DNA of 64,000 bases from Naegleria gruberi (taxonomy: Eukaryota): assembly GCA_000004985.1 (NCBI GenBank), contig GG738852.1; one strand, written 5' to 3'. Below the pieces are notes generated by a model that searched no databases, was not told the DNA's origin, and worked only from the letters and a program-made list of their open reading frames with translations. Positions 19,601 through 47,065 of the stretch are shown here, one piece after another. The position numbers and the translations under genes are program-made. The stretch's first letter is position 1, and every line of letters starts with the position of its first letter.

Positions 19601-22600
19601 CCTCTTCATATAGTACTTGGTTATAATTTCTAGTAACCTCATTTCTTGTTGTTGCTGAAGTTGCATAAAGTTATTCTCCATAATCATTTCCAATTCTTTT
19701 AAAACCCTTTCACATTCCTTGAACCATTTCTTTTTTAAATAGGCCTCAGCCAGAGTAATGTAGAGATCTGGATTTTTGATAGAGAGTGAAGATTGAATGA
19801 GGCCAAGGCAAATATTGACACATCTTTCTAAATTTCCACCATTTAAGAGTAATTTAGCATAATCAATTTCAAGTTCCATCTTGAAATCAAATGATGATGA
19901 GAGGGATTTGATCGTTTCCAGAGCATCTCTTTTAACTCTCTCAGCATTTCTGAATTCACCTTTTTCCATAAATAAGGCAGATAATTTTGAGGAAATATTT
20001 GCAATTACTGCCACACGTTTGTCACGGCAAGCTTTTTCATTCAGGATGGTATAATATCTGATGGATCTACTCCAATCATCACTCTTAACGGCAAGGGCTG
20101 CCAACTCATCAATAAACTTGTAGTCATGATCTGAGGAGAGAAGTCTATAGTTTTGAGTGTACATCTCGTAAATAATTGATGCATACTGTGGCTTTCTGTT
20201 TGAATAGAGGGCGTCTCCAAATTTTCTCATTGCTTTAAGTGCTTCTGCACTTACAATTGTTGGAATTCCCACACAAAGAGGAGGACATTTTTGGAATAGA
20301 TAAACACTTTCAAAAAGTGCACACTCTCCAAGTCTGGTCATGTCAGAATCACCCTGTTTGGCCCAAAAAGATCCCAACGAATAAGCTACATAGGCTTTGT
20401 TCTTTGAGATACCCATTCTACTGTAAAATTTGCTGAACATGACAGCAATTCTCTCGTGAGAACTTAATAGTGGATGTCTGAATTGAGGTATCCATGTCTC
20501 AGAGCCAGCATGTTTTCTCAATGTAGAATCATACAATTCTAATAATGTTACAATTAGTGCTCCACAGTCACACAAGCTTGGGAAGCTAAAATAGGGGGAA
20601 TTGAATGTGGTACCCATGGTTGAGGAGCCAACAAAAATAGGTGCATCCCTAATCTTTTGATCAACTACAGAGTAGAAGAGTGCATTATTTTCCATTCCTT
20701 CCTCTGGTATGTCAAAGACTTCATTGAAAATCATGGCCAAAGTGGTAAAAACTTCGCTAATACTGTCAAAATCAGGGAACATGCCAGTTTCTAATTGGAA
20801 TATGTGGTACTTGATTTGAATTTCACATTGGAGAACAATAATGCTTGCTCTCTGAGTTGGATAAGCATTGAACAGCAGGGAAATCATTTCAGTATATTGA
20901 GCACTCTGTTTTGGATCTTCCAAATTGAATAATCTTGTAGAATTTGCACTTTTCAATAAATCTACACAAATGTGAAAGAGGTATGCTCTCTCATTTAGAG
21001 CGAGTTTGTTAACAACTTCAGGTGTCATATTTTCGAAAAATTTAACCAGAATACTCTGAGTAGTAATTTGCTCCTTTGCAATATGAATCAGTCTGTAACA
21101 AATTTCATAGAAATTCTCAATAAACTCCATTGAAAAGTCATAGCTTTGCACTCTCTTCTCCAACCTCGAGAGGAGAAAATTTGTTAAATCATCTCTAGAG
21201 CAAGAGTCAATCACATTCTGATCTTTGACTTTTTTAGGTATTAGAGATTGAAACCACAGCAACAATTCACGTTTTCCTTCATGGAATGATTTTCCACCAA
21301 TCAATCCTTTAGTTAAAACAACTTCTGGTAGCATTAGCTCTTCCTTGTAAGTCCTCGATTTAAAGAGTCTATACTTGTTAGGGAAGAATTCTTCTTCGAA
21401 AAGATCATTTTCTTCATCTTTAGATTCCCTGTCGTCTGTTTTATCTCCAAATAAAATCCCAGCCAATGAAGATTTTGGAGCAGAATTAAAATCAATTTCA
21501 TCTCCCCAATCACTCTCACTATCACTTTCATCACTATCCTCTTGCCACTTGGATTTCTTTGGAAGATCGGTATTGGTTTTTTCTTTTTGCTCGATTTCTT
21601 TCAGAACCTTGTCCATCTTTCCATAAATTTCAAGTTCCAATTCACTAAAGTTTTCACTACATGCATCTTCAGGCATGTCAATTTCCTCCATAGATGAAAA
21701 AATCAATGTACTTCCCTTTCCAAGTCTGTTGACCAAATGTAAAACTCGTTTTGCCAATTCCATTTCAGAAAGAGCTCGCAAACAAATACCCATATAATAT
21801 ACAATCAAGAGAAAAACTTCGAGATTTAACACAGAGACAAAACCTGTCGAAGTGTACGACGTCAAATCACGAAGAGCAGGCACAAGAAATGATGCCAATA
21901 CCTTGTACAAGTATTTCTTTTCACTAATTGTCATTTCGAGACTATTAAAAGTAGGTTTGATAATCTCACTCATATCTTGTGAATTGATCATTTCCTCTGC
22001 CAAACACAGTAAAATTTCTGAATGTAAAATCCGTGTGGACAGTACAATAAATGATGGTGAATTTGAGCAAATAAAATCAGATGGAGCAACAGATTGCAGA
22101 AGAGCATCAGTTTTCTCCTGTGCACTTTCCAGATATTCATTTGCATCGTCAACTTTTTTCTTTTGTTTGAGGATAATGGATTTGAGGAATAGACATTTCG
22201 AGTGTAGCAGTTCAATTTTTGGTACAAATTTACCATATTGATTATTGGTGGCCAACTCCTCAACCCTAGACAGTTGGGCAAAAGATTCGGCAAACTGTTT
22301 GTGTTCTCTGTGAATTTGAGCAATTTCCAATCGTTTTGTCATTTCATTAGCAAGAAGTGTTTCATACTCTTCTGTTGTTGCACATGTTGGATCCCTATCA
22401 TCGTCCTTATAGTATTTTCCAATTAAATTATCCAATTGTTCGTTCAAAACTCTGACATCTCGGAAGAGTGACCACTTTTGATCTAAAACAATTGTATTGG
22501 CATCACCGTAACCATTATGTAAATCCAAAATCCTCTCTGTTTCAGCTCCCTCCTCAATAACACTATTCAAATCATGATCCGACTCTGTTTTAGAATTACT

Positions 22601-23148
22601 CTTATTGGTGATAATGTAGGTGATATTCTGTTGGGGATTTAAACTCACAAATGATACATTGGGTGAGAAGTTTGAATTCAATCCGGCATAGGTTGTTGTA
22701 GTAATTGTTGAGGCATCAGAGAGAAATCTATTGTGATACTTGTGTTGATGTTCCTTCAGGGACCGATGTTTGGTTTGTGTTGCTGTTGTATTGTTATTAT
22801 TATTATTGGATGATGAGGTAATATTGATTTTAGAGTCATCACTAACGGATAATGAAATTGATTTAGTTACACTCAACATTTGCTTCTTCCGATCTTCCTC
22901 TGATTGTATCCAAAATTGAGGAAGTTTAGATTGGTTCTTGAAGAATGTTGCTTGGATGGGAAGGATGGGTCGTAAATCGTTACATTTTTCAGCTAATGAT
23001 ATTAAAGATGATGATGAACACAAATGTTTCTCCTTTTCTACTGCTTACCTGCTATTACGAAAGATTCGATAAATTGAATTTCTAGAGCCAGTTGCTCGTT
23101 GAGTTGGTCGAATGATGTGACCGTACTGGCTGATTGTGTTCTTTGCAT
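16697..23148 (-). CDS. Giant hypothetical protein (about 2131 aa) with TPR-like helical repeat stretches; 2-exon model
   Basis: The 6.3-kb ORF begins at TTG, not ATG. A true ATG at 23148 (aaaaaaaacATG) opens exon 1, 23148-23049, encoding MQRTQSASTVTSFDQLNEQLALEIQFIESFVIA. A GTAAGC donor at 23048 and a cattag acceptor ending at 22993 (56-nt intron, phase 1) splice in frame to exon 2, 22992-16697, which starts AEKCNDLRP. Confidence 0.7.
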
Positions 23149-25184: not shown

Positions 25185-27281
25185 ATGAATCACTCACCAT
25201 TCTATCAACATCATGTTCATCATCCATACCCTCCGAGTCACCAACAACAAGTACACCAACAACAACAGCAGGATCATCATTATCTTCCTCCATCAATGAG
25301 CCATCATCATATGACTCCACCACCAACATCAAATATGTATCATCAACACCACTCCTATCCTTCCAGTCATTTATATGCTGTAAATTCAAATTATCAAAAT
25401 TCAGGCTTTGGTTATCAACCCCATTTACATTCCTACTCTTCTGCTGTGCCATCACCATATCCACCACCTGTTAGTGAGCCACATTATTATGATATCCATC
25501 CTCCTCATAGTACTAGTGGGTCATCTGGTTATATGCCACCTTCTCAGGCTTCATCAAGAATGGAAGACAAGCCTTATGATTACTATCCTCCACCTCCACC
25601 AAGGTATTCAACAGGAAAAGAATATGGAAGAGTAAATAACAACAAGCCTAATAATCCAAATACCAATACCAATCACAATAACAACAAGAGGTTACATGCT
25701 AACAACCAGCACACTGAACAACACAACAAGCCTTCGGAAAAAATTGGGACAACAAACACAACAAATAATTCAATAACTAGAAAACCCCAATTTGAAAATA
25801 AGAGAAAAATTACAGTGGATATGCAGCCCAACAAGAAACAAAAACAAGCTGTTCCAACATCAAAAATTTCAACAGAAAAAACTAACGAAAAAATTGTAAA
25901 TAATAGTAATAGTAATAATAAGAATGAGGATAAATCGAGTGATGAAAAATTGGATATTTATAGAGTATTACGAGTTTGTGCAGAGAATAGTTCTGCTGAT
26001 TTGACAGAAAATGAAATTTTCAAATATTTTCCTAATGCTTTAAAGGTAAGAATGGAAAATCAAAGAGATTTTCTTGTTGAATTTTCTTCATTGGTCGACA
26101 TGATACCATATATTGAGTCGGAGACTTTGCAGGAAGAAGAGACTGTAAATATTTCCATACCAAAAAGTTTGATACCACCAGAGTATGCAAACAATACCCA
26201 AAAGTTAGTTCTTGAATTTATAGATTTCCTCAAACAAAAGCAACCTCAATCATCATCTAATGGTTCTGCTTTTGACCCTTCTAATTGGAATAAGCTGATA
26301 TCCTCAATCAAAATACCTCAAAATGTTTCTCCTTACGAGTTGTTGGAATTTAGAGAACGAAGAGTTAAGAAAGTTCTTGGTAAGAAGGAGTTTGGAATTC
26401 TCATTCATGATAAGCCTAAAATAACAGATAAGATAGGCTTTCCACTTTTTTCAAATCCTAATATGACAGATAATAGGGGCAATGAAAGGTTCTTCTTTTT
26501 TGCATTTTGCAAAACTGGTACAACATTCTTGGGCAAGGAAGAAATTTCCAAATGTTTTCCAAATGCCAAGGCCATACATTTTGATCCTGGTGATCATAGA
26601 ATAATTGTCGAGTTGAATAATCAAAATGACTTTAATGCCTACAAGAAGATTAGCCATTCTGGAAAACTACTTGTTCGAAATCATTCCTTCCTACTGAGAA
26701 AGGCCAATCCTAAAGACATTCCCCCAGATATTCTCAACCCACCACTCCAACAAAGTACAGATATTCCAACAGTTACTCAACCAAGTTCTGAAGAATCAAA
26801 GAATGCCTCAACTCCAGACAAGAATCTACTCTTACAGCAATTACGTCAACAAATGGATCATCCATCAGAAACGCCCAAGCAAGATCCAAAAGAATTGAGA
26901 AATGCCTTACTTGCCCAAATGAAAACACAACCATCAAGCGTTGAATCTTTGGAGAGTTTTATCAGCCTTTCTGATCCAGAAAGTGAATCATCAAGTGAAG
27001 AGGATGAAATGATTGAGGAAACAGAGGAAGACGTGAGGTCTTACTCGTCTTCTGAATCAAATAATGAGGAAGCTCCATCATCTCCCCAACATCCAACAAC
27101 ACCCAACAAGACTCAATTACTATCAGCACTTAGAGAACAAATGCAACAATCAGCTGAAAAGAAGAAAGAACCAACTCCAAGCACAACCTCAGTCTCTGCA
27201 TCAAGCTCCAATATTCTTGGTATAAAGAGAAAGACTTTTGCCAGTCACTATGCTCTATTTCACCCTAAATTTAACAAATAA
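25185..27281 (+). CDS. Low-complexity H/Q/P/Y/N-rich protein (698 aa) with two copies of a conserved FPNA-containing module of about 35 aa
   Basis: ATG at 25185 in aaaaATG context. The N-terminus has His/Gln/Pro runs (HHVHHPYPPSHQQQVHQQQQQDHH). The internal duplication is FKYFPNALKVRMENQRDFLVEFSS and SKCFPNAKAIHFDPGDHRIIVELNN. The C-terminus is Ser/Glu acidic. Confidence 0.65.
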   Translation: MNHSPFYQHHVHHPYPPSHQQQVHQQQQQDHHYLPPSMSHHHMTPPPTSNMYHQHHSYPSSHLYAVNSNYQNSGFGYQPHLHSYSSAVPSPYPPPVSEPHYYDIHPPHSTSGSSGYMPPSQASSRMEDKPYDYYPPPPPRYSTGKEYGRVNNNKPNNPNTNTNHNNNKRLHANNQHTEQHNKPSEKIGTTNTTNNSITRKPQFENKRKITVDMQPNKKQKQAVPTSKISTEKTNEKIVNNSNSNNKNEDKSSDEKLDIYRVLRVCAENSSADLTENEIFKYFPNALKVRMENQRDFLVEFSSLVDMIPYIESETLQEEETVNISIPKSLIPPEYANNTQKLVLEFIDFLKQKQPQSSSNGSAFDPSNWNKLISSIKIPQNVSPYELLEFRERRVKKVLGKKEFGILIHDKPKITDKIGFPLFSNPNMTDNRGNERFFFFAFCKTGTTFLGKEEISKCFPNAKAIHFDPGDHRIIVELNNQNDFNAYKKISHSGKLLVRNHSFLLRKANPKDIPPDILNPPLQQSTDIPTVTQPSSEESKNASTPDKNLLLQQLRQQMDHPSETPKQDPKELRNALLAQMKTQPSSVESLESFISLSDPESESSSEEDEMIEETEEDVRSYSSSESNNEEAPSSPQHPTTPNKTQLLSALREQMQQSAEKKKEPTPSTTSVSASSSNILGIKRKTFASHYALFHPKFNK

Positions 27282-36897: not shown

Positions 36898-39273
36898 TTA
36901 GATTGTTTTGTTTTCTGTTTCTTCTTGTGGTTCAGTGGTGAGAGCTTGTTTGGAGTGCACTTCATAAACAATGAGCCAATTTCTGTATTGTTGAGTGGTT
37001 TGTAAACGACCATACGTATCCCACATATTATAGAGCATGTCACTGGTCAATTGGTGCCAAAGTGCTTCAACTTGTTTGTCAATTTCTGAGCCAGATACTG
37101 AGAATTTTTCTGCCTTCTTTTCTCTGATTTGGTCTAATAATTCATAGAAACGTGCCTTACTTTTGTGATGAATATTGACTTCATTGGGTGAATACATTCG
37201 AATAAAGTTGGATTCAATATGTTCCAATTGTTCCATTGTTGCAAATCCTGCCTTTTTAATTTCCAAAAGTTTGTCAAACAGATTACAGTTTTCCAATGAA
37301 GTTTCATAATAACTGTACTCTTTGAATAGTGTAGAGAAAGAAGGATTATTTGTGAGGAGGTGTTCGAATAAATTTTGTTCTCTTTCAACACTGGAACGAT
37401 TTGTTCTTTTGAATCGTCTTGCCTTAATTTTGTTGACTATTTCAATTGTCATGGCAATGCCTCCACTCACAGCTAACAACCAAACAGCAATTATAAATCT
37501 GACAATGTTACTTCCTAGTTGTGTTTGATTGGCTGGTGTCAATATAACCAATATAATGGCTAATATCACTTGAACAAACAGGGCCATCATATCCAATCGA
37601 ATGTGAGCTGGATCAGCAAAGAAAAAGTATTTTTGAAGTCCCTGTTCCTTGATCTCTTTCCAATTTAGAATTGCATCTATTGCACTATACAGTAAGGCAA
37701 GTACAATGGCTAATGCTGCCAACACTACAAAGTAAATATTGTTGAAAACCACCAAGTTATTAAAATCAACTGCAGCTGCAATGATGGAAGGTGCAACAAA
37801 GATAAATTGTAAAAATAGAGGAAGAATTAAAACAATTCCCCATCCAACCTTTTCAGAAGCTAACCATCTTGCAAATCTTGGATTCTTTGAGTTTTTGATA
37901 ATTCTATATAAATTCTTAATATATAAGAATCTCACAACCATCAATAGATATGCAGATCCAGCATAACCTGTAAATAGTAAAGTGAGTGGTAGCAGTACAG
38001 AACGACAATAATTTCTGACCATTGTTGAAAAGAGAAGTTCTACAAAGACCACCACAATTGGAGAAATGTAGATGGTTGCCAATCTGGTTCTCACTGATGG
38101 AGTTTTGTAAAGTGAAAATCCAAACAGAATTACAAAATAGAAAAATACTGGGACAATGATAATAAAGAGAAGGTAATCACCAATATCAATATTCTCAGCA
38201 GCGCAGGTTGTGGTGGTGCAACAGTGACATGTGGAATTGTAGAGCAAGTTTGATACTTGTGTTTGATTGAATTGATCTAGGGAATTGTTTAAAGTAAGGT
38301 AACTCTCAATGAAAGACCAATCCCTCTGTAATTTGATGGATTGTACACTTTCCAATAAATCAATCTCAGTATGTGTGAAATTCACAACACCATGCAAAGT
38401 GTCCAACACATAAGTGTCATGATATCTACTCAATGAGCAATCTGTTACATTTGTGAAATTTCTCATATTGATTTGACTCGAAAATAAAGAACCACTTCCA
38501 TCAATCGAATTGACCAAAACCTGTGATGGAAATAATGGAATGGGTACAAAATCAGTTGGATTGTAATAAGTACCATCACTCGATGGTGTCGTTCCCATTC
38601 CATAAAATAGACCCTTCCTCGTCACAAATTGATTCACTCTCACGTAGAATGCAAAATCAAAACTATTCAACAATAAGGCATCTCCCAATTCCAAACTAGA
38701 TCCATAAATACAATCAGGATAGAATGAAGAACGTGATTCCACAACAAAATTCTGATCAATCCATGTCTTGTTGTAATTTGTTGTCAGTGAGCTCCATATT
38801 TTCTGACATGGATACAGTTGTGGACAAAGAATTTTAAATTTCCTTGTCTTTCCAAATGGCTGTCCATTGGTTGAATAAAACTTTGTAAAATCTTGAGAAT
38901 TATTCGACACTCTCCCTATCAAATCATCCAAACTAAATGGATTTGTATTTTCTATTATCCCATTCGGATAAACAAATTTCCTCCATACAAATATAGAATA
39001 ATAATTGAAGGCACCAACAATTATCGAATTATTCTTCAAGTCTTGCATGTTGACCATGCTAACCTTATCTTGTATTTGCTGTTGTTGATATCCTAGAACA
39101 TAATTGGGTAGAGCGGAAAAGGTCAGTATTAGCAGTAAAATGTAAAATAGTTTGGTTTCTAATAAACTAATAGGAATGTTAGAATAAATACTCCCATAAG
39201 GTAAGAACCCAGTTCTTGTTGTGTGACCTATTATAACAGTCTGCACGTGTTGTGTGGTGTAACTTTGTGCCAT
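36898..39273 (-). CDS. Seven-transmembrane receptor with about 370-aa N-terminal ectodomain and C-terminal RGS domain (7TM-RGS)
   Basis: Probable ATG at 39273 (MAQSYTT...) with a signal anchor LFYILLLILTFSALP. Seven hydrophobic helices run from YLLFIIIVPVFFYFVILFGF to IVRFIIAVWLLAVSGGIAMTIEIV. An RGS-like block follows: EREQNLFEHLLTNNPSFSTLFKEYSYYETSLENCNLFDKLLEIKK...FIRMYSPNEVNI...ARFYELL. Confidence 0.7.
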   Translation of the reverse strand: MAQSYTTQHVQTVIIGHTTRTGFLPYGSIYSNIPISLLETKLFYILLLILTFSALPNYVLGYQQQQIQDKVSMVNMQDLKNNSIIVGAFNYYSIFVWRKFVYPNGIIENTNPFSLDDLIGRVSNNSQDFTKFYSTNGQPFGKTRKFKILCPQLYPCQKIWSSLTTNYNKTWIDQNFVVESRSSFYPDCIYGSSLELGDALLLNSFDFAFYVRVNQFVTRKGLFYGMGTTPSSDGTYYNPTDFVPIPLFPSQVLVNSIDGSGSLFSSQINMRNFTNVTDCSLSRYHDTYVLDTLHGVVNFTHTEIDLLESVQSIKLQRDWSFIESYLTLNNSLDQFNQTQVSNLLYNSTCHCCTTTTCAAENIDIGDYLLFIIIVPVFFYFVILFGFSLYKTPSVRTRLATIYISPIVVVFVELLFSTMVRNYCRSVLLPLTLLFTGYAGSAYLLMVVRFLYIKNLYRIIKNSKNPRFARWLASEKVGWGIVLILPLFLQFIFVAPSIIAAAVDFNNLVVFNNIYFVVLAALAIVLALLYSAIDAILNWKEIKEQGLQKYFFFADPAHIRLDMMALFVQVILAIILVILTPANQTQLGSNIVRFIIAVWLLAVSGGIAMTIEIVNKIKARRFKRTNRSSVEREQNLFEHLLTNNPSFSTLFKEYSYYETSLENCNLFDKLLEIKKAGFATMEQLEHIESNFIRMYSPNEVNIHHKSKARFYELLDQIREKKAEKFSVSGSEIDKQVEALWHQLTSDMLYNMWDTYGRLQTTQQYRNWLIVYEVHSKQALTTEPQEETENKTI

Positions 39274-39473
39274 TTTTTTATGTCTGAATAAATATAATAC
39301 GAAAAGTGACAATATTTAGATGTTAATGGTAGAGTGACGGCCAAAGATATATCAAAGTCTCCTTTAGGTAATTTTAATATCTCACCTGAATAAGGCAATA
39401 ATATGGTAAAGAACTTGGTTTGCAATTATCCTTTGAATCGATTATAATGAAATTTGTTCATCAGTATTTGAAA

Positions 39474-39992
39474 TTATTGTTTCCACAAGCCAATTCCTCT
39501 ATTTCTTGCACTTGTTTCATATTGCTTGTATTCACTTTGATATTTAACATTGGGATGATAGAAAACAGCTCTAGCATAACCTCCTTCCAATAGCATTTTC
39601 TGAAAATTATTTCCTCCAACCCAAACATGTGCCAATAATCTTCCATAACCATCTCTCAATTCATTTTCAAACTCTAGAATGATACTTGCATTTTCTAGTA
39701 CCTGCTTTGTGTAATCTGAAGCAGCCTGTCCATAGTATTCCTTCTTCTTTTTAGGATGAACTGTTTCGGGTGTATCCACTCCAATCAATCGAATTCTTTC
39801 CTTCTCTCCATCACGCATTTTACAAATAATTGTATCACCATCGACAACTCGCAATACACGAATATTCTTCATTTGGGAATTTCTGGTCGGTTCCTGAACG
39901 AGTGGTAAATTTAAATTTGAATTTTGAAAGGAATTCTTCCAAATAATCGTTCCGATCAAGAGGATTGCAAAAATCAGCACTTTGAGTTCCAT
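39474..39992 (-). CDS. Staphylococcal nuclease (SNase/thermonuclease) homologue with N-terminal signal/TM anchor (LCL3-like)
   Basis: 172 aa with aaaaaaaATG at 39992 and an N-terminal hydrophobic segment LKVLIFAILLIGTIIW. SNase blocks are VLRVVDGDTI, RIRLIGVDTPE, EYYGQAASDYTKQ and GRLLAHVWV. Confidence 0.8.
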   Translation of the reverse strand: MELKVLIFAILLIGTIIWKNSFQNSNLNLPLVQEPTRNSQMKNIRVLRVVDGDTIICKMRDGEKERIRLIGVDTPETVHPKKKKEYYGQAASDYTKQVLENASIILEFENELRDGYGRLLAHVWVGGNNFQKMLLEGGYARAVFYHPNVKYQSEYKQYETSARNRGIGLWKQ

Positions 39993-40040: not shown

Positions 40041-43000
40041 TTATTTTGTTTCAAAATAGGAATGTTCCATAATTTCTTTAGCTTGTGGTCTTTTGGATGG
40101 GTTTTTCTCCAACATTAAAATGATGATTTCCTGTAGTGTGTCTGAATACTTGCCACATTCAGAGAGCTTGTTTTTAAGCCATTGCTTTACATCATTGGTA
40201 GACTCTGATTGCATGTATAAATTACTAATGGATGTAACTAGGTCACCTGTGCATAATTGATAAATTGCAACTCCTAGAGAATACACATCAGTGTTAAAGC
40301 TATACTTTGCTCCAAGACCTAATTCTGGAGACATGTAAAGAGGAGTTCCAGCATAAGAATTATTGACAGAACCAAACATTTGTTTCGCAAGACCAAAATC
40401 TGCCAATACTATCGATACAGAATTATCTGATAATTCATTAATAAAGATATTGTTAGGTTTTACATCTCTGTGAATCATTTTAAGGTTGGTGTGAACAAAG
40501 CTCAAGGCATCACAGCCTTGATAAAGTATTTGTTTCACAATATCCTCACTAATAGTACCTGCTGCTTTAGGAATGAGTTTTGTCAAGTCTCCATTTTCAT
40601 AATAGTCCATGTCAATAAGTAATATTTGATCCTTGTCAATAAATAAATCATTCACTTTTAAAATGTTTGGGTGATTGATATTCATCAATTGAGTTCCTTC
40701 TTTCATAATCGAGTTCAATTCCTCAATATCAGAATATTTGACAACTTTTAGCGCCTTCAGTTTATCGCCCATCTTGGTATCGTTGCATTTAAAAACTGAC
40801 CCAAATCCGCCTTGTCCAATCTTCTCCAAATTCTTATATCTTGAGGCAGGATCGAAATTAGATGCAGATGATATTATAGAAGTGACAGTAAGTCCATTAG
40901 AGTTTGTTGAACCTCCAATTATGGATTTGAAACGAACACTTTCGTCCGATGGAAAGTCTGAACTATATGATGATGGCGCAATGCTAGAATTCATTTTGTT
41001 ATACTGTGAATCATTGAGTTCAATCATGCTCTCTCCCTGATTAGGGAAATCATTGACAGTGTTTGGGACTGGTTTCTGCTTTTTCATTCCTCTAAAAACT
41101 ATAATGAAAACAATTATGACCACAATAATCAATATAACAATAACTAAAAGAGAAAGTCCGACTGCTAAACCAATTATTAAACCTAGTTGATTATTGCCTA
41201 CTATTGTTGAAGAACCAACTCTTGTTGCAATGTTAACATTGCAACTAGAACCTGTCCATCCAGCATTACAGTTGCAATAGTTATAATCAGTGCATTTTCC
41301 ATTTGAGGAACAAGAGTTGGTGTTATTGGAATAAATTCCATAACACATGGTTACTTCACAATATTTTCCATAGAAATTACTACCACAACTACAAGTATCA
41401 TGAGATGAACAACTTCCTCTCGAAGAACAAACAGAAGAATCAGTGCTTTGAGTACCATTACAAAGAGATACCTTACATTCAGTTCCTTGATAGAATGGTT
41501 CACACTGACAAGTGTCTGCTGCTACACAGGTACCATGGCCCCCACAAACAGAAGCATCAGTGGATAACTTTCCAAAACATTTTCTGGTATCACAATTGAC
41601 TCCATAAAATCCATTATTGCATGAACACGAATTGTAATCGATACATGTACCATTGGAGGAACAAACTGAAGTGTCATTCGAAAACTTTCCATAACACATG
41701 GTTACTTCACAATATTTTCCATAGAAATTACTACCACAAATACAAGTATCATGTGCGTTGCATACTCCCCTTAAAGATGAGCATACCAATGTAGAATTAC
41801 TTAATGTACCGTTACAAGTTGTAATTTTACAGTCAGCTCCAAGGTAAAGGCTGTCACATCTGCAAGTGTCACTAGAAATACATGCTCCATGGCCGCTACA
41901 AACATTACTTGTATCGTTTGATAATTTACCAAAACAACTCAATAAATTACACTGAGATCCATAGAATCCTGAGTTGCACTGACAAGTGTCTGGTGCAATG
42001 CATGTACCATTTCTTGAACAAGCATTTGGCTGCTCTGAGCTAAAACCAAAACATGTTGGGATGCATGCATTATAATATTGGTTCAAAATGTAGGGAGAGT
42101 CACAATATGGGGTCAATTGTCTTACAGTATTTTTCTGATTATCAACAAAAACAATTTCAGAAGTAGAGGTAATGAATGCTCCACTAGGGCTTAGAGTGGC
42201 TTTAGTGGCATCGGGACCATCATCATTGAATCCAACCAGGTTTGATCCACCATTTCCTGCCATTGTAGATATAATTCCATTTGCTGCTAATCGCATTCTG
42301 TTTTGTCCTCTGTCAGAAATGACAATAAAATTCGAAATACTTGATCCAAATACAGAAATAGGTGAGAGACCTGCATATAAAATATTACCATTATCATTCA
42401 GACTTGCACCCAACCCAGAGTAAACATTCAGAATATTGGTGCTTGAATCCACATACATGACGCTCAATTTCGAGTTATAGTATGCCAAAAAGTAAAATCC
42501 AGTCGGTGAAACATATATTCCTCCATCTACACTAATTGTGACAGAATTAGCTTGCGATGATCCAGGAATAAATGTTGATTCTGAACTGATAGTTCCAGCA
42601 ACATTTGTTATTATTCCATTGGAATTGATCTTCCTTATCAGAAAATTATCCACAATGAAAACCTCATTAGCAGAAGTGACAAAAATACCAGTTGGGAAGC
42701 TGAATACATTTGGGTGAGCAAAAAGAGTTTTGAAACTTACTAAAGTCTTGCACTGAGAGCATTGACACCATCATCACCTAAATATCCACTGGAAGGTGGC
42801 TGTGATCCAGTACCTGCAATAGTAACAATGGTACCATTAGTGAATATTTTTCTAATTCTTCTATTAACACTGTCTGATATGTATACTTCATTCTTGAATT
42901 CAAATACAGAACTAGGATAGTTCAGTTGAGCTGTGGAAGCATCCATATAATCGCTATTGTATCCAGCAACTCCGGTACCAGCTATCGTAATTATAGTTCC

Positions 43001-44594
43001 ATTAGCAAACACCTAACAATCATTTAAATCAAATATGAGAATTAGAATCAATACAAACCTTGCGAATTCTGTGATTACCAGTATCGGCAATCAAGTATTG
43101 TCCATTGCTAGTTTTAACAACATTGGCAAGTTGGTTGGTCATAAATTTGAATGTTGCCTTAGTTGCTTGAGAACCATCTTGTTGTAATGTTAAATATTAA
43201 TATTAAATAATGGAATTAATCATACATACCTCCACTAAATGTAGAACCTCCTATTCCAGCAACTGTTGTAATAATTCCAGTACTAGTAGAAATCCTTCTC
43301 AATCTCATATTATCTGAAATGAATACTTCACCAGGAGAAGTTGAAAAAACTCTAATTGGGCTAACATTTACCAAATTTGCTTGAACATTATCCTTATAAT
43401 TAGTATAAGAGGATGTTCCTGTTCCAGCAATAGTAACAATGGTACCATTAGTTAATACCTTTCTCAATCTATTACTGCCCAACTCTGCAATCCATATCTC
43501 ACCGTTACTGTCAACAGAAACACCATAAGGATAACTTGTCAAGTTAGTTAAAAAAACATACATCTAAAAAAACCTACTCAAGTTTAGCTGCAGTAGCCAG
43601 CATTCCATCACCATTATATCCCTCCTCACCAGTACCTGCGACAGTAATAATTGTTCCATTCGTTAAAACCTTTCGAATTCTGAAATTTCCTGCATCAGCT
43701 ATATAAATTTCATTGTTGCTCGTGACAAAGATTCCCTGAGGGTTAGTGAGACGAGCATAGGTGGCAGGTATTCCATCCCCATTGTACCCAAAACCCAAAC
43801 CAGTTCCACTTGTTCCAATTTGTGTGCCATTTCCAGCTACTGTTGTAATAACTCCCGTTGAAACATTAACCATCCTAATGTAATGATTCTGATATTCTGA
43901 AATATAAACGTTTCCATTTGAAGAAACAAATACGTCAACAGGAGAGTTGAGATAGGCATTTGTAGCAAGCATTCCATCTCCATTATATCCAGCATTTCCG
44001 TTTCCTTATGAAGGATTAGTCCTATATCTTTACAACAACAACCACTTACCTGCTATTGTCACAATATTGCCATTAGTTTGAATCTTTCTAACTCTAGAAT
44101 TTTGACTATCAGCAATATAAATTTCAGAATTAAAAACAAATACACCAGTGGGTGTATTGAGCTGAGCTGTAGTTGCTTGAATATTATCGCCATTGTACCC
44201 AGAAACTCCAGTACCTAAATTTTCCAGCACATCATCATACCAAGATGTGAAACACATTTGTTTCCATAACAATATGTGTGCATGTGTAAAATAAATTTTG
44301 TCATGAGAAAAACATACCAGCAATGGTGAGAACGGTTCCATTAGCTGCAAATACTCTCACTATTCTATGATTGCTATTATCAGAAATAAATAAATCACCC
44401 GAACTGAGATCTTTAAAACAACTATTGACATCAATATTGGCCATTTTGGCATCTATTCCACTGGATAATGAATTGTAGCCAGCAATGGTCGTGATGTTAT
44501 ACTTGACAGAGATTGCGCCAATAACTAAACCGCTGCCATGGTAGGTCAAAATGAGTAGGCACAGAATCCAAACAACCTTTGCATCTGCCAACAT
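40041..44594 (-). CDS. Receptor Ser/Thr kinase: signal peptide, 6-bladed NHL-repeat beta-propeller, tenascin-type EGF-like array, TM, kinase domain (about 1407 aa, 7 exons)
   Basis: Exons on the minus strand are 44594-44318, 44214-44050, 44004-43578, 43534-43230, 43177-43059, 43012-42741 and 42699-40041. Introns are 103, 45, 43, 52, 46 and 41 nt, with donors GTATGT, GTAAGT, GTAGGT, GTATGT, GTTTGT and GTAAGT, and all phases are consistent. NHL blades contain the repeated IYIADxxNxRIRKxxxNGTIxTIAGTG. Several CxCxxGxxGxxC EGF modules follow. The TM segment is LIIGLAVGLSLLVIVILIIVVIIVFIIVF. The kinase shows GQGGFGSVFK, VVK, HRDVKPNNIF, DFGLAK and GTPLYMSPE. Confidence 0.8.
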
Positions 44595-45019
44595 TTTTTT
44601 CTTGTTTGATTTGACATGGTCCAAAAGTGGCTAATATGTGAATGGTGCTGAACAGCAAAGATGAACTAGAATTTGATTTGTGATGCCAATGGAACTATCA
44701 GATCAAGTAAAGGTACTTCCTCATATCTTCCTGTAATCCAAAGCCAAAAACATAAAATTATGGATCACAGCCATCATCAAATTGACAATCACTAGAATTT
44801 ATCTTTTTGCACAGTTCATTGTCTGGTAAATTAAATCCAATTTGAAGTTATTAATGTTGAAGAGAATTCTTCCAAGCCAAACATTCCGATTCATCATTGA
44901 AGGGTAAAATAAAAAAGAAGCTTCATTCCATTTTTTTAAATAATTTTCCCGCCCAAAATAAATTTAATCCATCAAAATCTAAATATTGTAACAACTCATA
45001 TTTAATAATATTAAAAAAA

Positions 45020-47065
45020 ATGAGTCTATCAATTTTACCACAAGATTTAATTTACGAAGTGATGAAATTTCTTCGTGTCGATCAACGTATTCGCATCTCG
45101 AGAGTTTGCCAAGAGTTTTATCATATCATAGCGTCTCTTTTTCCCGCACTAGAATTAAATTTGAGTGGCGGGAAAATATTACCAGTAAATTTACCAAGTT
45201 TTCTTTCGTGTCCATTTCTTGAGCAGGTTACAGTGTTGGATCTTTCAGAGAATCTTTTATCAGAGGAGAATATTATTGCAGTTGCCAACTGTGAAAGATT
45301 TAAAAAATTAGAAGAGTTGATTTTGAAAAAGAATGAGTTTAGTTTAAAATGTGCCGAAGCTTTTACTAAATCATCATTTATTAGACAATTGAAATATATT
45401 GATCTTAGAAATGCATTCTTTGTATGGAAAGATGTAGATCATGTTGAAATTGGAAAGAAATTTATTACAAGTCAACCACAAGATTTGCAAAATTTTTGGT
45501 ATCTAGTTTTGGGTAATTGTGGAACAGAAATAGTACCTGAATGGTTATTGGTTGGATGTAAAGAGGGAAATAGTAAATTGCATTGGGAAACTCAATTGGA
45601 GTTTGGTGAATATTTATACCATTCTGAACAAAACACATCACTAGCAATTCAATACTTTGAGGAGTTGGGCAATAATCCACTAGCTCATAATAGAGCTATT
45701 GCCATGTACGTTTTGGGTAAAATTTATTCAACACTAGGTGAAAAGTATCATTCGAAAGCATTCCAGTTATTCTTAAAAGCGGCAAATCTTGATGATCAAC
45801 TATCCTATTTGTCTGTTGCCAACTTTTATTCATTTGGAATTGGTATTGGATCAGATCCAGATGAAGCATTGAAGTGGTATTTGAAATATGCAGAGAATAG
45901 TAATGATGATGATGGAGTTGTTGCACATCAAATTGGTGGTATTTATTTTGAGTACAAAAAAGATATCCCACAAGCTCTGAAATGGTGGAACAAATCTGCG
46001 GAAAAGGACAATACAGAAGCACAATATTCACTCGGTACAATATATATGAATGGGGATGGTGTTGAAAAGGATGTTAAGAAAGGTATGGCACTACTTGAGG
46101 ATTCAGCAAGATTGGGCAATTCTGATGCTCAGAATACAGTCGGTGCAATTTACTTAGAAGGTGAAGATTCAATTGAAATAGATCTCAATAAGGCCAAAGA
46201 CTTTTTAATTGCGGCAGCTGAGGCAGAAGACACAGATGCTCTCTACAATTTAGGGATATTAGCAGAAAATGAAAAACGATTCGAAGAGGCAATGCAATGG
46301 TATAAAAAGGCCTTAGATATGGGAAATACAGCTGCTGCTTATCCACTCGGAAGGTTTTATTTCCAAGGACTGGTAGCTCCAAAAGATGAAAAGAAAGCCA
46401 TTCATTATGTTGAAATCGCCGCCAATAATAATTCTTCAATAGCCCAAGAATATTTGGGTGATATTTACCACACCAAAGAGAGTGAAATTTATAATCCTGT
46501 AAAGGCAATTGAATGGTACACAAAAGCTGCCTCGAATGACTCTACCAATGCCATGTATAATTGTGGATGTATTAATGAGGAGCTTAATAATTTTGAAATG
46601 GCTTTATATTGGTATACAAAGGCGATAGAAAAGGGTAGTTCATCAGCAATGAATAATTTAGCAATGATATACTATGAAAAGAAGAATTATGAGAATGCTA
46701 AGAAATGGATAGAAAAATCAGTGGAGTTTAACAATTCATATGCAATATGCACGATGGGTGAGTGGTATATAGAAGGTTTATGCTATGAAAAGAGTTATGA
46801 AAAGGCTGTTCAACTCTTTACTAGATCAACTCAATTTACAGATGAAAGTGGTGACCAATCGATTTGTCCTCCTGCTTTCCTGCATCTCTATAAATTATAT
46901 GCTAATGGTTTGGGATGTGAGAAGGATTTGGAAAAGGCACAACAATTGCTCGAAACTGCTGCCAAATTAGAAATACAAGAAGCTATTGAAATACTCGAAG
47001 ATCAACAATCCAAAAAGAGAAAATCAACCACTGAATATGATGGCTCATCAAAGAAAATGAAATAA
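45020..47065 (+). CDS. F-box / LRR / Sel1-like (TPR-family) repeat protein
   Basis: ATG at 45020 (aaaaaaaATG; the track ORF begins at an upstream TTG). The F-box is LPQDLIYEVMKFLRVDQRIRISRVCQEF, followed by LRRs and at least 8 Sel1-type repeats (AxxWYxKAAxxGxxxAQxxLGxxY pattern). Confidence 0.75.
   Translation: MSLSILPQDLIYEVMKFLRVDQRIRISRVCQEFYHIIASLFPALELNLSGGKILPVNLPSFLSCPFLEQVTVLDLSENLLSEENIIAVANCERFKKLEELILKKNEFSLKCAEAFTKSSFIRQLKYIDLRNAFFVWKDVDHVEIGKKFITSQPQDLQNFWYLVLGNCGTEIVPEWLLVGCKEGNSKLHWETQLEFGEYLYHSEQNTSLAIQYFEELGNNPLAHNRAIAMYVLGKIYSTLGEKYHSKAFQLFLKAANLDDQLSYLSVANFYSFGIGIGSDPDEALKWYLKYAENSNDDDGVVAHQIGGIYFEYKKDIPQALKWWNKSAEKDNTEAQYSLGTIYMNGDGVEKDVKKGMALLEDSARLGNSDAQNTVGAIYLEGEDSIEIDLNKAKDFLIAAAEAEDTDALYNLGILAENEKRFEEAMQWYKKALDMGNTAAAYPLGRFYFQGLVAPKDEKKAIHYVEIAANNNSSIAQEYLGDIYHTKESEIYNPVKAIEWYTKAASNDSTNAMYNCGCINEELNNFEMALYWYTKAIEKGSSSAMNNLAMIYYEKKNYENAKKWIEKSVEFNNSYAICTMGEWYIEGLCYEKSYEKAVQLFTRSTQFTDESGDQSICPPAFLHLYKLYANGLGCEKDLEKAQQLLETAAKLEIQEAIEILEDQQSKKRKSTTEYDGSSKKMK

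What the first reader, a model, noticed from the sequence alone, without database searches (positions are those of the whole stretch)
40041..44594. Receptor kinase with NHL beta-propeller plus tenascin-type EGF ectodomain, encoded by 7 exons
Seven exons, with consistent phases and classic donors, assemble a single 1407-aa type-I membrane protein: signal peptide, six NHL blades, about 8 CxCxxGxxGxxC EGF modules, one TM, and a complete Ser/Thr kinase (HRDVKPNN, DFG, SPE). NHL and EGF together resemble teneurin/tenascin ectodomains, but here they sit on a kinase. The ORF track splits this into six unrelated ORFs.
Basis: partly seen in the sequence, partly recalled or inferred. Interest (0 to 1): 0.55.

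Follow-up and report, generated by a model that had tools for sequence, protein, structure and literature searches.

The report
Naegleria NHL-propeller/EGF receptor Ser/Thr kinase
This is a real, correctly assembled 7-exon gene of the amoeba Naegleria gruberi, already in RefSeq as an uncharacterised "predicted protein", and it encodes a cell-surface receptor kinase whose outer part is two NHL beta-propellers on a stalk of seven EGF modules, one of at least 13 such lineage-specific receptor kinases in this species.

Summary
Splicing seven minus-strand exons (44594..40041) through six short GT..AG introns gives a 1407-aa protein. It is residue-for-residue identical to Naegleria gruberi XP_002680869.1 / UniProt D2V4M0 ("predicted protein", NAEGRDRAFT_63839), so the gene model is already public. 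No paper in the searchable library names it.

Pfam confirms NHL, teneurin-type EGF and a complete Ser/Thr kinase. Two counts need correcting:
- There are 12 NHL blades, modelled as two six-bladed propellers, not six blades.
- There are 7 six-cysteine EGF modules plus one extra Cys pair, not about 8.

The kinase has every catalytic motif. It is closest to NEK/ULK/STE20/CDPK-type kinases, with none of the classical receptor kinase groups among the listed best matches.

The transmembrane, juxtamembrane and kinase cassette carries a conserved "DFPS[DE]xSxxF" motif. It recurs at 42-54% identity in at least 13 N. gruberi genes and in N. fowleri, N. lovaniensis and Willaertia magna. The ectodomains vary: NHL with or without EGF, RCC1 plus EGF, and GPS-containing forms.

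It is not a teneurin: no YD shell or FN-plug was found and the topology is opposite. It is not a PknD homologue: the topology is inverted.

The likely mechanism, which is inferred, is ligand- or contact-driven clustering followed by trans-autophosphorylation. Interest is modest.

The parts
40041..44594 (-). Whole coding region (ATG 44594 to stop 40043-40041) of N. gruberi NAEGRDRAFT_63839, 1407 aa
   Evidence: Own splice. Exact identity to XP_002680869.1 / D2V4M0.
44318..44594 (-). Exon 1 (277 nt): leader plus blade 1. It ends in phase 1 inside the Gly codon of 'TIAG'.
   Evidence: G93 is invariant in the homologue alignment A1.
44215..44317 (-). Intron 1, 103 nt, GTATGT..TAG, phase 1
   Evidence: Retention gives a stop at codon 98.
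44050..44214 (-). Exon 2 (165 nt): blade 2
44005..44049 (-). Intron 2, 45 nt, GTAAGT..AAG, phase 1. It sits at the same position in the repeat as intron 1.
   Evidence: An in-frame TAA follows if the intron is retained. G148 is invariant.
43578..44004 (-). Exon 3 (427 nt): blades 3-4 and the start of blade 5
   Evidence: The best Pfam NHL stretch, aa 233-259, lies here.
43535..43577 (-). Intron 3, 43 nt, GTAGGT..AAG, phase 2, with a TAACTAAC branch-like motif
43230..43534 (-). Exon 4 (305 nt): blades 5-6
43178..43229 (-). Intron 4, 52 nt, GTATGT..AAG, phase 1
43059..43177 (-). Exon 5 (119 nt): most of blade 7. It is absent from the list of ORFs of at least 40 aa.
43013..43058 (-). Intron 5, 46 nt, GTTTGT..TAG, phase 0
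42741..43012 (-). Exon 6 (272 nt): blade 8 and the start of blade 9
42700..42740 (-). Intron 6, 41 nt, GTAAGT..CAG, phase 2. It sits at the same position in the repeat as intron 3 (after 'A.L').
   Evidence: L521 and P524 are nearly invariant on either side.
40041..42699 (-). Exon 7 (2659 nt including the stop): blades 9-12, the EGF array, TM, juxtamembrane region and kinase
44529..44594 (-). Probable cleavable signal peptide, aa 1-22 (MLADAK / VVWILCLLILTY / HGSG)
   Evidence: Hydropathy. Low-confidence helix in the AF2 model. The cleavage site is a heuristic only.
43255..44507 (-). NHL propeller 1, blades 1-6 (aa ~30-383; the span includes introns 1-3)
   Evidence: AF2 half-model: pTM 0.83, six 4-stranded blades. 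Foldseek TMt 0.78-0.86 to six-bladed SOQ1, NHLRC2, Pizza6 and PknD.
42105..43254 (-). NHL propeller 2, blades 7-12 (aa ~384-720; the span includes introns 4-6). Blades 10-11 are degenerate.
   Evidence: Repeat anchors. AF2 ectodomain model. Foldseek.
41241..42104 (-). Cys pair 721/734 plus seven six-Cys tenascin/teneurin-type EGF modules (aa 738-1008, period 39-40 aa)
   Evidence: Cys map. EGF_Teneurin 1.2e-27, EGF_2 2.4e-23 and EGF_TEN 5.6e-21.
41091..41186 (-). Single transmembrane helix, aa 1027-1058
   Evidence: Kyte-Doolittle maximum of 4.1 over 19 residues.
40929..40958 (-). Conserved juxtamembrane motif DFPSDESVRF (aa 1103-1112)
   Evidence: Present as [ST]DFP-S[DE]xS.xF in 13 of 16 aligned family members.
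40053..40838 (-). Ser/Thr protein kinase domain, aa 1143-1404. Motifs: GQGGFGSV, K1173, E in MKEG, HRDVKPNN, DFG, SPE, DVYSLG, KRP.
   Evidence: Pkinase 184 bits, 3.7e-54. Motifs. Invariant columns in A3.

Best explanation
The locus is one intact protein-coding gene of Naegleria gruberi (NAEGRDRAFT_63839). It encodes a type-I single-pass receptor Ser/Thr kinase.

Shown here:
- From the outside in, the protein has a leader peptide, two six-bladed NHL beta-propellers (12 blades), a rigid stalk of seven disulfide-bonded tenascin/teneurin-type EGF modules, one TM helix, an ~85-residue juxtamembrane segment with a family-conserved acidic/Ser motif (DFPSDESVRF), and a catalytically complete RD-type kinase.
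- The kinase is nearest to NEK/ULK/STE20/CDPK kinases.
- The gene is one member of a receptor-kinase family found so far only in Naegleria and Willaertia. In this family the TM, juxtamembrane and kinase cassette is kept, while ectodomain modules (NHL, EGF, RCC1-like propeller, GPS-containing regions) are exchanged.

Inferred mechanism: the distal propellers bind an extracellular ligand or surface, which could be soluble, bacterial/prey or another cell. Binding clusters the receptors, and the RD kinases then trans-phosphorylate the Ser/Thr/Tyr-rich activation loop (DFGLAKQMFGSVNNSYAGTPLYMSPE) and probably the juxtamembrane motif, starting an intracellular phospho-relay. The ligand and the substrates are unknown.
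For: - Gene model: my own splice gives 1407 aa, identical to the RefSeq/UniProt entry. Each retained intron truncates the protein, and the introns are more AT-rich than the exons.
- Junctions: every splice restores the NHL consensus. The split or flanking residues G93, G148, P292, R430, L521 and P524 are invariant or nearly invariant among 20 homologues. Introns 1/2 and introns 3/6 occupy equivalent repeat positions and phases.
- Domains: Pfam hits.
- Fold: 12 blades in the ectodomain model. The first half alone gives pTM 0.83 with six blades. It superposes on six-bladed NHL propellers, TMt 0.78-0.86, including the PknD sensor domain.
- Topology: one TM segment lies between a Cys-rich, sequon-rich N-terminal part (17 NxS/T) and the kinase.
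- Kinase: all catalytic motifs are present. The nearest solved kinases are NEK1/2, ULK1/2, MST3, HPK1 and CDPK. Pkinase scores 184 bits against 109 for PK_Tyr_Ser-Thr.
- Family: 42-54% identity over TM, juxtamembrane and kinase, with varied ectodomains. All named members are from Naegleria gruberi, N. fowleri, N. lovaniensis or Willaertia magna.
Against: - No transcript evidence could be consulted, so the six junctions rest on sequence logic, homology and agreement with the JGI model, which may itself be ab initio.
- Signal-peptide cleavage was not tested with a dedicated predictor.
- The EGF stalk and the relative orientation of the two propellers are poorly modelled (pLDDT below 50 beyond aa ~720).
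- Ligand, clustering and trans-phosphorylation are inferred by analogy with other single-pass receptor kinases. Nothing here tests them.
- The mature ectodomain has an odd number of Cys (C59 plus 44), which is left unexplained.
Confidence: 0.85

Rival explanations
1. The protein is mainly a teneurin-like cell-cell or cell-substrate adhesion molecule. The NHL propellers would make homophilic or heterophilic contacts, and the kinase would only report or modulate adhesion rather than sense a diffusible ligand.
For: The best Pfam and PDB relatives of the ectodomain are teneurin or teneurin-like NHL and EGF modules. The membrane-proximal EGF stalk with distal NHL is the same spatial order as in teneurins (domain order from PMC13018210). 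Kinase-less NHL+EGF+TM proteins also exist in Naegleria.
Against: The protein lacks the teneurin superfold: no YD-shell or FN-plug hit. All seven EGFs have six Cys each. From my own recollection, not checked here, teneurin cis-dimerisation uses unpaired Cys in EGF modules, and no such Cys is present in these EGFs. Naegleria amoebae are solitary. This rival overlaps the main explanation, because contact-induced clustering is allowed there.
Confidence: 0.15
2. The 7-exon model is a mis-fusion. A secreted multi-NHL protein gene (exons 1-6) and a separate EGF-TM-kinase gene (the 870-aa ORF) would have been wrongly joined.
For: No transcript data were available. The mechanical ORF track shows separate ORFs. 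Some database relatives are kinase-only models of 283-290 aa (P0127 and P0130).
Against: The large ORF opens with GTG in the middle of blade 9. Its first ATG lies inside a blade, with no leader, which would leave EGF modules without a route into the secretory pathway. Repeat periodicity and conserved residues run straight across intron 6. Independent gene models in N. gruberi, N. lovaniensis and N. fowleri join NHL, TM and kinase in one protein. An environmental contig has the same layout.
Confidence: 0.03
3. The propellers are enzymes of the lactonase/SMP-30 or PAL type rather than binding modules, which would make this an ecto-enzyme tethered to a kinase.
For: Weak sub-threshold Pfam hits to SGL (16.8 bits against a cut-off of 26.3) and to Vgb_lyase. 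Many bacterial relatives are auto-named 'sugar lactone lactonase YvrE'.
Against: Both hits are below the gathering scores. The NHL and TEN_NHL models fit far better. The closest solved structures listed are annotated as NHL repeat domains or as a sensor ectodomain, namely the teneurin-like protein, SOQ1, NHLRC2 and PknD, not as lactonases or lyases.
Confidence: 0.03
4. The gene is a decaying or silent paralogue, a pseudogene in the making, within a large expanding family.
For: The family has many paralogues, some with truncated models. Blades 10-11 are degenerate. No expression data were available.
Against: The 4.2-kb coding sequence has no frameshift or internal stop, all splice sites are intact, and all catalytic residues and all 42 EGF cysteines are kept.
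Confidence: 0.05

Closest known systems
Paralogous Naegleria/Willaertia receptor Ser/Thr kinases. Examples: N. gruberi D2VCE7, D2VUG2, D2VNU7, D2VI53, D2VPM5, D2VMZ5 and D2VGC0; N. fowleri FDP41_013523; N. lovaniensis C9374_012036 and C9374_002334; W. magna ABK040_001103. All are uncharacterised database entries.
   Same: Type-I topology. One TM segment lies ~90-120 residues before the Gly-loop. The juxtamembrane motif DFPS[DE]xS.xF is shared. The TM-to-C-terminus region is 42-54% identical among close members and 32-35% in outliers. Many have NHL blades, an 'R-K-L-x-P-Y-C' junction and tenascin-type EGFs.
   Different: Ectodomains differ in blade number and EGF number (0-13). Some have a large GPS-containing region before the TM segment, or RCC1-like propellers instead of NHL. 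The best kinase match (N. fowleri, 54-57%) has a quite different ectodomain. No same-architecture orthologue appeared among the hits examined.
Mycobacterium tuberculosis PknD (PDB 1RWI/1RWL): a bacterial Hanks-type Ser/Thr kinase with an extracellular NHL beta-propeller sensor.
   Same: A six-bladed NHL propeller outside, one TM segment and a Hanks-type Ser/Thr kinase inside. The sensor domain is a sequence hit (8.6e-7) and a fold hit (TMt 0.78-0.80).
   Different: By the standard description of PknD (my recollection, not tested here), its kinase is N-terminal and its propeller C-terminal, the opposite chain topology. It has one propeller rather than two and no EGF stalk. It is bacterial. The kinase domains are not specifically related: PknD is not among the best kinase hits.
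Teneurins and bacterial teneurin-like proteins (BiTLP, PDB 9IFO/9PT5; PMC13018210).
   Same: The NHL propeller and the tenascin-type EGF modules are the best Pfam and PDB matches: TEN_NHL, EGF_Teneurin and EGF_TEN; BiTLP at 4.5e-78 and 38% identity over the propeller. The EGF stalk is membrane-proximal and the NHL part distal.
   Different: No FN-plug, YD/RHS shell, TTR, ABD or Tox-GHH. Teneurins are type II (N-terminus inside) and have no kinase. Here there are two propellers, 7 rather than 8 EGFs, and none of the EGFs has an odd Cys count.
Other eukaryotic single-pass receptor kinases: plant RLKs including EGF-bearing WAKs, animal TGF-beta receptors and RTKs, and Entamoeba TMKs.
   Same: The overall logic is an extracellular repeat or EGF ectodomain, one TM segment and a cytoplasmic kinase. 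In plants there are also kinase-less receptor-like proteins alongside (established knowledge). Naegleria has kinase-less NHL+EGF+TM proteins as well.
   Different: The catalytic domain is not of the TKL/RLK-Pelle or TK type. Its best solved relatives are NEK1/2, ULK1/2, MST3, HPK1 and CDPK, and Pkinase scores well above PK_Tyr_Ser-Thr. The NHL ectodomain is not used by those families, to my knowledge.
Propeller-EGF receptors of the LDLR/LRP5/6 type, and Bacteroides hybrid two-component sensors with tandem periplasmic propellers (BT4663).
   Same: Tandem beta-propellers serve as the ligand-binding part of a membrane receptor. These are fold-level hits to the whole ectodomain model.
   Different: Their propellers are YWTD-type or seven-bladed, not NHL. 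The superposition is poor (rmsd 15-30 Å). Their output is endocytosis/Wnt signalling or a histidine kinase, not a Ser/Thr kinase.

Membership tests
Eukaryotic (Hanks-type) protein kinase, Ser/Thr-specific, catalytically competent | Pkinase profile above the gathering score | tested here: met
   PF00069 scores 184.3 bits against a cut-off of 31.7, full length 1-263/263.
Eukaryotic (Hanks-type) protein kinase, Ser/Thr-specific, catalytically competent | Gly-loop, beta3 Lys, alphaC Glu, HRDxKxxN, DFG, APE-like motif, subdomain IX Asp and XI Arg | tested here: met
   GQGGFGSV 1150, K1173, E in MKEG, HRDVKPNN 1265, DFG 1289, SPE 1312, DVYSLG 1326 and KRP 1391. The same residues are invariant in the family alignment A3.
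Type-I single-pass receptor kinase | Exactly one TM helix between the ectodomain and a C-terminal kinase | tested here: met
   The only strong hydrophobic segment besides the leader is aa 1027-1058.
Type-I single-pass receptor kinase | Cleavable N-terminal signal peptide | tested here: inconclusive
   A hydrophobic segment at aa 7-28 follows K6, and small residues GSG at 20-22 fit the -3/-1 rule. No SignalP-type predictor was available.
Type-I single-pass receptor kinase | Ectodomain built of extracellular-type modules (disulfide-rich EGF, N-glycosylation sequons) | tested here: met
   42 Cys in seven 6-Cys EGFs. There are 17 NxS/T sequons N-terminal of the TM segment and 4 after it.
NHL-repeat six-bladed beta-propeller | NHL profile hits above threshold | tested here: met
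   PF01436 scores 93.5 bits (cut-off 20). PF25021 scores 121.5 bits (cut-off 27.1).
NHL-repeat six-bladed beta-propeller | Closed six-bladed fold | tested here: met
   The model of aa 23-401 has pTM 0.83 and six 4-stranded blades. TMt is 0.78-0.86 to SOQ1, NHLRC2, Pizza6 and PknD. The whole ectodomain has 12 blades. Closure of the second propeller, and a possible N-terminal 'velcro' strand, are inferred only.
Teneurin / teneurin-like protein | Tenascin-type EGF repeats plus an NHL propeller | tested here: met
   EGF_Teneurin, EGF_TEN and TEN_NHL hits. BiTLP and teneurin-2/3/4 are top PDB hits.
Teneurin / teneurin-like protein | Superfold of FN-plug plus NHL plus YD/RHS shell (PMC13018210) | tested here: not met
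   No YD/RHS, FN-plug, TTR or Tox-GHH family appears among Pfam hits at E<=0.1. PDB matches cover only the NHL and EGF parts.
Teneurin / teneurin-like protein | Type-II orientation with a small N-terminal intracellular domain | tested here: not met
   The N-terminal leader, the TM segment at 1027-1058 and the C-terminal kinase give a type-I orientation.
PknD-type bacterial sensor kinase | NHL propeller sensor coupled through one TM segment to a Hanks kinase | tested here: met
PknD-type bacterial sensor kinase | N-terminal kinase with C-terminal propeller, and a kinase domain related to PknD | tested here: not met
   The domain order is reversed here. The PknD kinase is not among the best 60 kinase matches. 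PknD's own domain order is taken from established descriptions, not tested here.
TKL-group receptor kinases (plant RLK/Pelle including WAK, TGF-beta receptors) or TK-group RTKs | Catalytic domain closest to TKL or TK kinases | tested here: not met
   For both the single sequence and the family profile, the best PDB hits are NEK1/2, ULK1/2/3, MST3, HPK1, CDPK and NEK7. Pkinase scores 184 bits against 109 for PK_Tyr_Ser-Thr. No formal kinome phylogeny was done.
NEK family | Kinase domain specifically grouping with NEKs | tested here: inconclusive
   NEK1/2 are top (153 bits), but ULK1 (151), CDPK (142) and MST3 (141) are practically tied. Pairwise identity was not tabulated but is low by eye in the NEK1 alignment.
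Heterolobosean 'DFPS' receptor-kinase family (unnamed; defined here) | TM plus juxtamembrane [ST]DFP-S[DE]xS.xF motif plus kinase at more than 40% identity | tested here: met
   The query has DFPSDESVRF at 1103-1112. It is 42-54% identical to 13 of the 15 other aligned members over the TM-to-C-terminus region, and 32% and 35% to the two outliers, P0300 and the Willaertia protein P0294.

The most novel reading that the evidence does not exclude
Vahlkampfiid heteroloboseans (Naegleria, Willaertia) may have built their own receptor-kinase system independently of animals and plants. A NEK/ULK-like Ser/Thr kinase with a private juxtamembrane motif would serve as a constant signalling cassette. Extracellular modules are shuffled onto it: tandem NHL propellers, tenascin-type EGF stalks, RCC1-like propellers and GPS/GAIN-like autoproteolysis regions. 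Kinase-less NHL-EGF-TM proteins would be possible co-receptors. The NHL(-EGF) cassette is as close to bacterial multi-NHL and teneurin-like proteins (38-46% identity) as to its own paralogues, so it may have come from bacteria by horizontal transfer. That would parallel the proposed bacterial origin of metazoan teneurins.
Probability: 0.35. Interest if true: 0.5.

Novelty: new variant of a known kind. Interest (0 to 1): 0.33.

Why it matters
Receptor kinases are textbook inventions of animals (RTKs, TGF-beta receptors) and plants (RLKs). How free-living protists outside these groups sense their surroundings through kinases is poorly charted.

This gene shows that Naegleria couples a teneurin/PknD-style NHL propeller sensor, held on an EGF stalk, to a kinase that does not match the classical receptor-kinase groups. 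It does so in a family of at least 13 genes in N. gruberi with shuffled ectodomains. The genus includes the brain-eating N. fowleri.

This gives concrete candidates for prey, bacterial or surface sensing in Naegleria, and for surface proteins of the pathogen. It is also a further case of convergent receptor-kinase evolution.

The value should not be overstated. The sequence and gene model have been public since the genome was deposited. The parts are all known domain types, and nothing here points to a new biochemical principle.

Tried and rejected
- Exact-sequence contig look-up of the 1407-aa protein returned nothing, so the deposited exon table could not be compared directly. Only the product could be compared.
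- The first homologue search did not return the protein itself. Its 90% cluster is represented by a 132-aa ORF fragment. That search was dominated by bacterial multi-NHL proteins, whose many repeats inflate the bit scores.
- I looked for paralogues inside the window. There are none, only an unrelated kinase at 14..790 with 27% identity.
- I tried to use the environmental contig L001 (ERZ2098899) to test conservation of intron positions. It is a more divergent paralogue type with degenerate blades, and its tblastn pieces (25-36% identity) are too weak for junction-level comparison.
- The AFDB Foldseek library was not available, so structural neighbours in other eukaryotes were not surveyed.
- Literature searches found no paper on this gene or on an NHL receptor kinase in Naegleria. 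The searches used Naegleria with NHL, kinase, kinome and receptor kinase, and the accession numbers. The Naegleria genome paper itself was not found in the searchable library.
- There are no tRNA genes in the window.
- Teneurin membership was considered and rejected: no YD shell or FN-plug, and the opposite topology.
- PknD orthology was rejected: inverted domain order and an unrelated kinase.
- An enzymatic propeller was rejected because the SGL and Vgb_lyase hits are below threshold.

Full report
**Source and gene model.** The window is AT-rich (about 34% GC). It carries long ORFs interrupted by short gaps, the pattern of a compact eukaryotic genome with short introns. I spliced the minus strand between 44594 and 40041 by hand from the sequence and by script. 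The seven exons are 44594-44318, 44214-44050, 44004-43578, 43534-43230, 43177-43059, 43012-42741 and 42699-40041. The six GT..AG introns are 103, 45, 43, 52, 46 and 41 nt long.

An exact-sequence look-up shows that this product is identical to EFC48125.1 / XP_002680869.1 / UniProt D2V4M0. That entry is "predicted protein" NAEGRDRAFT_63839 of Naegleria gruberi NEG-M, on a 938,756-bp scaffold. The neighbouring + strand ORF equals EFC47957.1 of the same scaffold.

**Are the introns real?** No RNA data were available, so I used internal and comparative tests.
- Retaining any one intron gives a stop at the junction codon or within 10 codons after it. This includes the 45-nt intron, whose length is a multiple of three. 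Introns are 27.3% GC against 36.3% for exons.
- Introns 1 and 2 interrupt the same Gly codon of the blade-ending motif "T-I-A-G" in phase 1. Introns 3 and 6 both follow the Leu of "A-x-L" in phase 2. This is what duplication of intron-bearing repeat units would produce.
- Splicing restores the NHL consensus at every junction. The residues split or flanked by introns (G93, G148, P292, R430, L521, P524) are invariant or nearly invariant in an alignment with 19 homologues.
- Independent gene models in N. gruberi, N. lovaniensis and N. fowleri join NHL blades, a TM segment and this kinase type in single proteins. An environmental contig shows the same layout of small NHL ORFs upstream of a large EGF-TM-kinase ORF.

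The alternative of two genes is unattractive. The 870-aa ORF starts with GTG in the middle of a blade and has no leader for its EGF modules.

**Domains.** Pfam gives the following hits:

| Family | E-value | Note |
|---|---|---|
| Pkinase | 3.7e-54 | aa 1143-1404, full-length match |
| TEN_NHL | 5.2e-35 | |
| NHL | 3.5e-27 | |
| EGF_Teneurin | 1.2e-27 | |
| EGF_2 | 2.4e-23 | |
| EGF_TEN | 5.6e-21 | |

Repeat anchors define 11 clear units plus a long degenerate one.

An AlphaFold2 model of aa 1-856 (mean pLDDT 75.9) shows twelve four-stranded blades between aa 56 and 720. It superposes best on the six-bladed NHL propellers of NHLRC2 (TMt 0.82, rmsd 2.6 Å) and SOQ1 (TMt 0.83). A separate model of aa 23-401 reaches pTM 0.83 with six blades. 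It matches SOQ1, NHLRC2, the designed Pizza6 proteins and the PknD sensor at TMt 0.78-0.86, and the NHL domain of the bacterial teneurin-like protein BiTLP at 38% identity.

The ectodomain is therefore two six-bladed propellers, not one. The N-terminal strand (aa 31-39) is confident only in the full model, and blade 12 has only three strands of its own. This hints at a "velcro" closure by the N-terminal strand, which is an inference.

The cysteine map gives a Cys pair at 721/734 followed by seven regular six-Cys modules at aa 738-1008 with a period of 39-40 aa. That is seven EGFs rather than about eight, and none has an odd cysteine count. One strong TM helix lies at aa 1027-1058. The only other hydrophobic segment is the N-terminal leader at aa 7-28. 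There are 17 NxS/T sequons before the TM segment and 4 after it.

**The kinase.** All catalytic signatures are present: GQGGFGSV, K1173, the alphaC Glu, HRDVKPNN, DFG, SPE, DVYSLG and KRP. They are invariant across the family. It is an RD kinase with a Ser/Thr/Tyr-rich activation loop.

Against all PDB sequences the nearest kinases are NEK1 (2e-31), MST3/STK24, CDPK, HPK1 and NEK2. A profile of 12 family members gives NEK1/NEK2 (153 bits), ULK1/2 (about 150), CDPK (142), MST3 (141) and NEK7 (138). No TKL kinase appears among the best matches. The one TK-group entry listed, an EGFR chain, has no stretch that passes the threshold. Pkinase also scores far above PK_Tyr_Ser-Thr (184 against 109 bits). 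The catalytic domain is thus a generic NEK/ULK/STE20-like Ser/Thr kinase, not the type used by plant RLKs, TGF-beta receptors or RTKs. Assignment to one group remains open without a proper phylogeny.

**The family.** A full HMMER scan of 1.8 billion representatives with the TM-juxtamembrane-kinase part found a discrete set of proteins matching from the TM segment to the C-terminus at 44-57% identity. Generic kinases follow well below them in score.
- All family members have type-I topology with one TM segment ~90-120 residues before the Gly-loop.
- 13 of 16 aligned members share the juxtamembrane motif [ST]DFP-S[DE]xS.xF, and also "(F)[DN]PxSRY" just before the kinase.
- Their ectodomains vary: NHL only; NHL plus 1-13 EGFs; RCC1-like propellers plus EGF; and large regions without a Pfam match that end in a GPS-like "C-x-T-T-H-L-T-S-F-x-V" motif before the TM segment.
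- Every member that carries a name comes from N. gruberi, N. fowleri, N. lovaniensis or Willaertia magna.
- At least 13 N. gruberi genes belong, counting two kinase-only models that may be truncated.
- Naegleria also has kinase-less NHL+EGF+TM proteins with short tails.

No other family member lies in this window.

**Mechanism.** What is shown is the architecture, the topology and an apparently active kinase. What is inferred is the following. The distal propellers, held away from the membrane by the EGF stalk, bind a ligand or surface. Binding clusters the receptors. The RD kinases then trans-phosphorylate their activation loops, and perhaps the conserved juxtamembrane Ser motif, to create docking sites or release autoinhibition. 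A contact or adhesion role like that of teneurins is a sub-variant I cannot exclude. An enzymatic propeller is unlikely because the SGL and Vgb_lyase hits are below threshold.

**Comparison with known systems.**
- It works like bacterial PknD (NHL sensor, one TM segment, Hanks kinase) but is not a member. The domain order is inverted relative to the standard description of PknD, and the kinases are not specifically related.
- It resembles teneurins only in the NHL and EGF modules and in their spatial order relative to the membrane. It lacks the FN-plug, the YD shell and the toxin domain that define the teneurin superfold (PMC13018210; Pfam), and its orientation is opposite.
- It shares the general logic of plant RLKs and WAKs and of animal receptor kinases, but uses a different kinase lineage.
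- Kinases with predicted TM helices are already known to be numerous in other protists, for example 131 in Saprolegnia (PMC3681718). A protist receptor-like Ser/Thr kinase is therefore not surprising in itself.

**Novelty and score.** The gene model and protein are public, but no paper in the searchable library names the gene or describes an NHL receptor kinase in Naegleria. I rate it a new variant of a known kind. It is a single-pass receptor Ser/Thr kinase with an unusual ectodomain (tandem NHL propellers plus an EGF stalk) and an unusual kinase lineage, and it belongs to a lineage-specific expanded family. Interest is modest at about 0.33. The finding is correct and tidy and useful for protist signalling and Naegleria surface biology, but all its parts are familiar and no function has been tested.

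Noticed in passing
window 36898..39312 (-): An 804-aa single-exon ORF. It has a Cys-containing N-terminal part, about seven hydrophobic segments, and a C-terminal weak RGS match (PF00615, E=4e-4, 21.1 bits, just below the 23.9 cut-off; aa 649-737). It may be a 7TM-RGS receptor. No other Pfam family matches.
   Followed up: partly
window 39474..39992 (-): A 172-aa ORF with a hydrophobic leader and a staphylococcal-nuclease domain (PF00565, 8.5e-28). It starts only ~48 nt downstream of the kinase stop codon on the same strand. The exact sequence is not in the protein collection, so the deposited model, if there is one, differs.
   Followed up: partly
window 44897..47065 (+): A Sel1/TPR-repeat protein (Sel1 3.2e-50) with an F-box-like N-terminus (LPQDLIYEVMKFL). 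From the second Met it equals EFC47957.1 'TPR repeat protein'. It is transcribed divergently from the kinase gene, with the coding starts of the two genes roughly 300-400 nt apart.
   Followed up: partly
related proteins P0246, P0262, P0267, P0268, P0284, P0285, P0131, P0316 (Naegleria spp.): Many paralogues of this receptor kinase carry a GPS-like motif 'C-x-[TS]-T-H-L-T-S-F-x-V' about 20-50 residues before the TM helix. UniProt names one of them 'GPS domain-containing protein'. A GAIN/GPS-type autoproteolysis module on a Ser/Thr kinase, rather than on an adhesion GPCR or polycystin, would be worth its own look. The window gene lacks it.
   Followed up: partly
related proteins P0265, P0272, P0274 (N. 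lovaniensis, N. gruberi D2V8B1, ENA): In these family members the predicted extracellular part is an RCC1-like propeller (WD40_RLD, 1e-98 to 3e-104) followed by EGF modules. RCC1 repeats outside the cell are unusual.
   Followed up: no
related proteins P0065, P0102, P0012 (N. gruberi, N. lovaniensis): Kinase-less proteins with the same NHL + EGF ectodomain. P0065 and P0102 show a clear single TM segment and a short cytoplasmic tail. P0012 has a weaker C-terminal hydrophobic stretch that falls below the hydropathy cut-off used. They may be receptor-like partners, analogous to plant RLPs.
   Followed up: partly
window 16697..23023 (-), 2704..6522 (-), 25185..27281 (+): Three long uninterrupted ORFs (2108, 1272 and 698 aa) with no significant Pfam family. 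Only sub-threshold TPR-like hits appear in the first.
   Followed up: no
window 14..1471 (+): Another protein kinase ORF at the window edge (Pkinase 6.2e-69). It is unrelated to the receptor family (27% identity) and lacks its N-terminus in the window.
   Followed up: no
locus L001 2680..7962 (+) (ENA ERZ2098899 NODE_78): An environmental contig, presumably from a Naegleria-like amoeba, with a homologous multi-exon NHL-EGF-TM-kinase gene. The source called it as prokaryote-style ORF fragments, and P0126 is its last exon.
   Followed up: partly
protein collection, cluster of P0121: The 1407-aa RefSeq protein is filed in a 90% cluster whose representative is a 132-aa ORF fragment (P0122, exon 3). 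The full protein is therefore invisible to representative-based homologue searches, which is a technical trap for eukaryotic multi-exon genes.
   Followed up: yes
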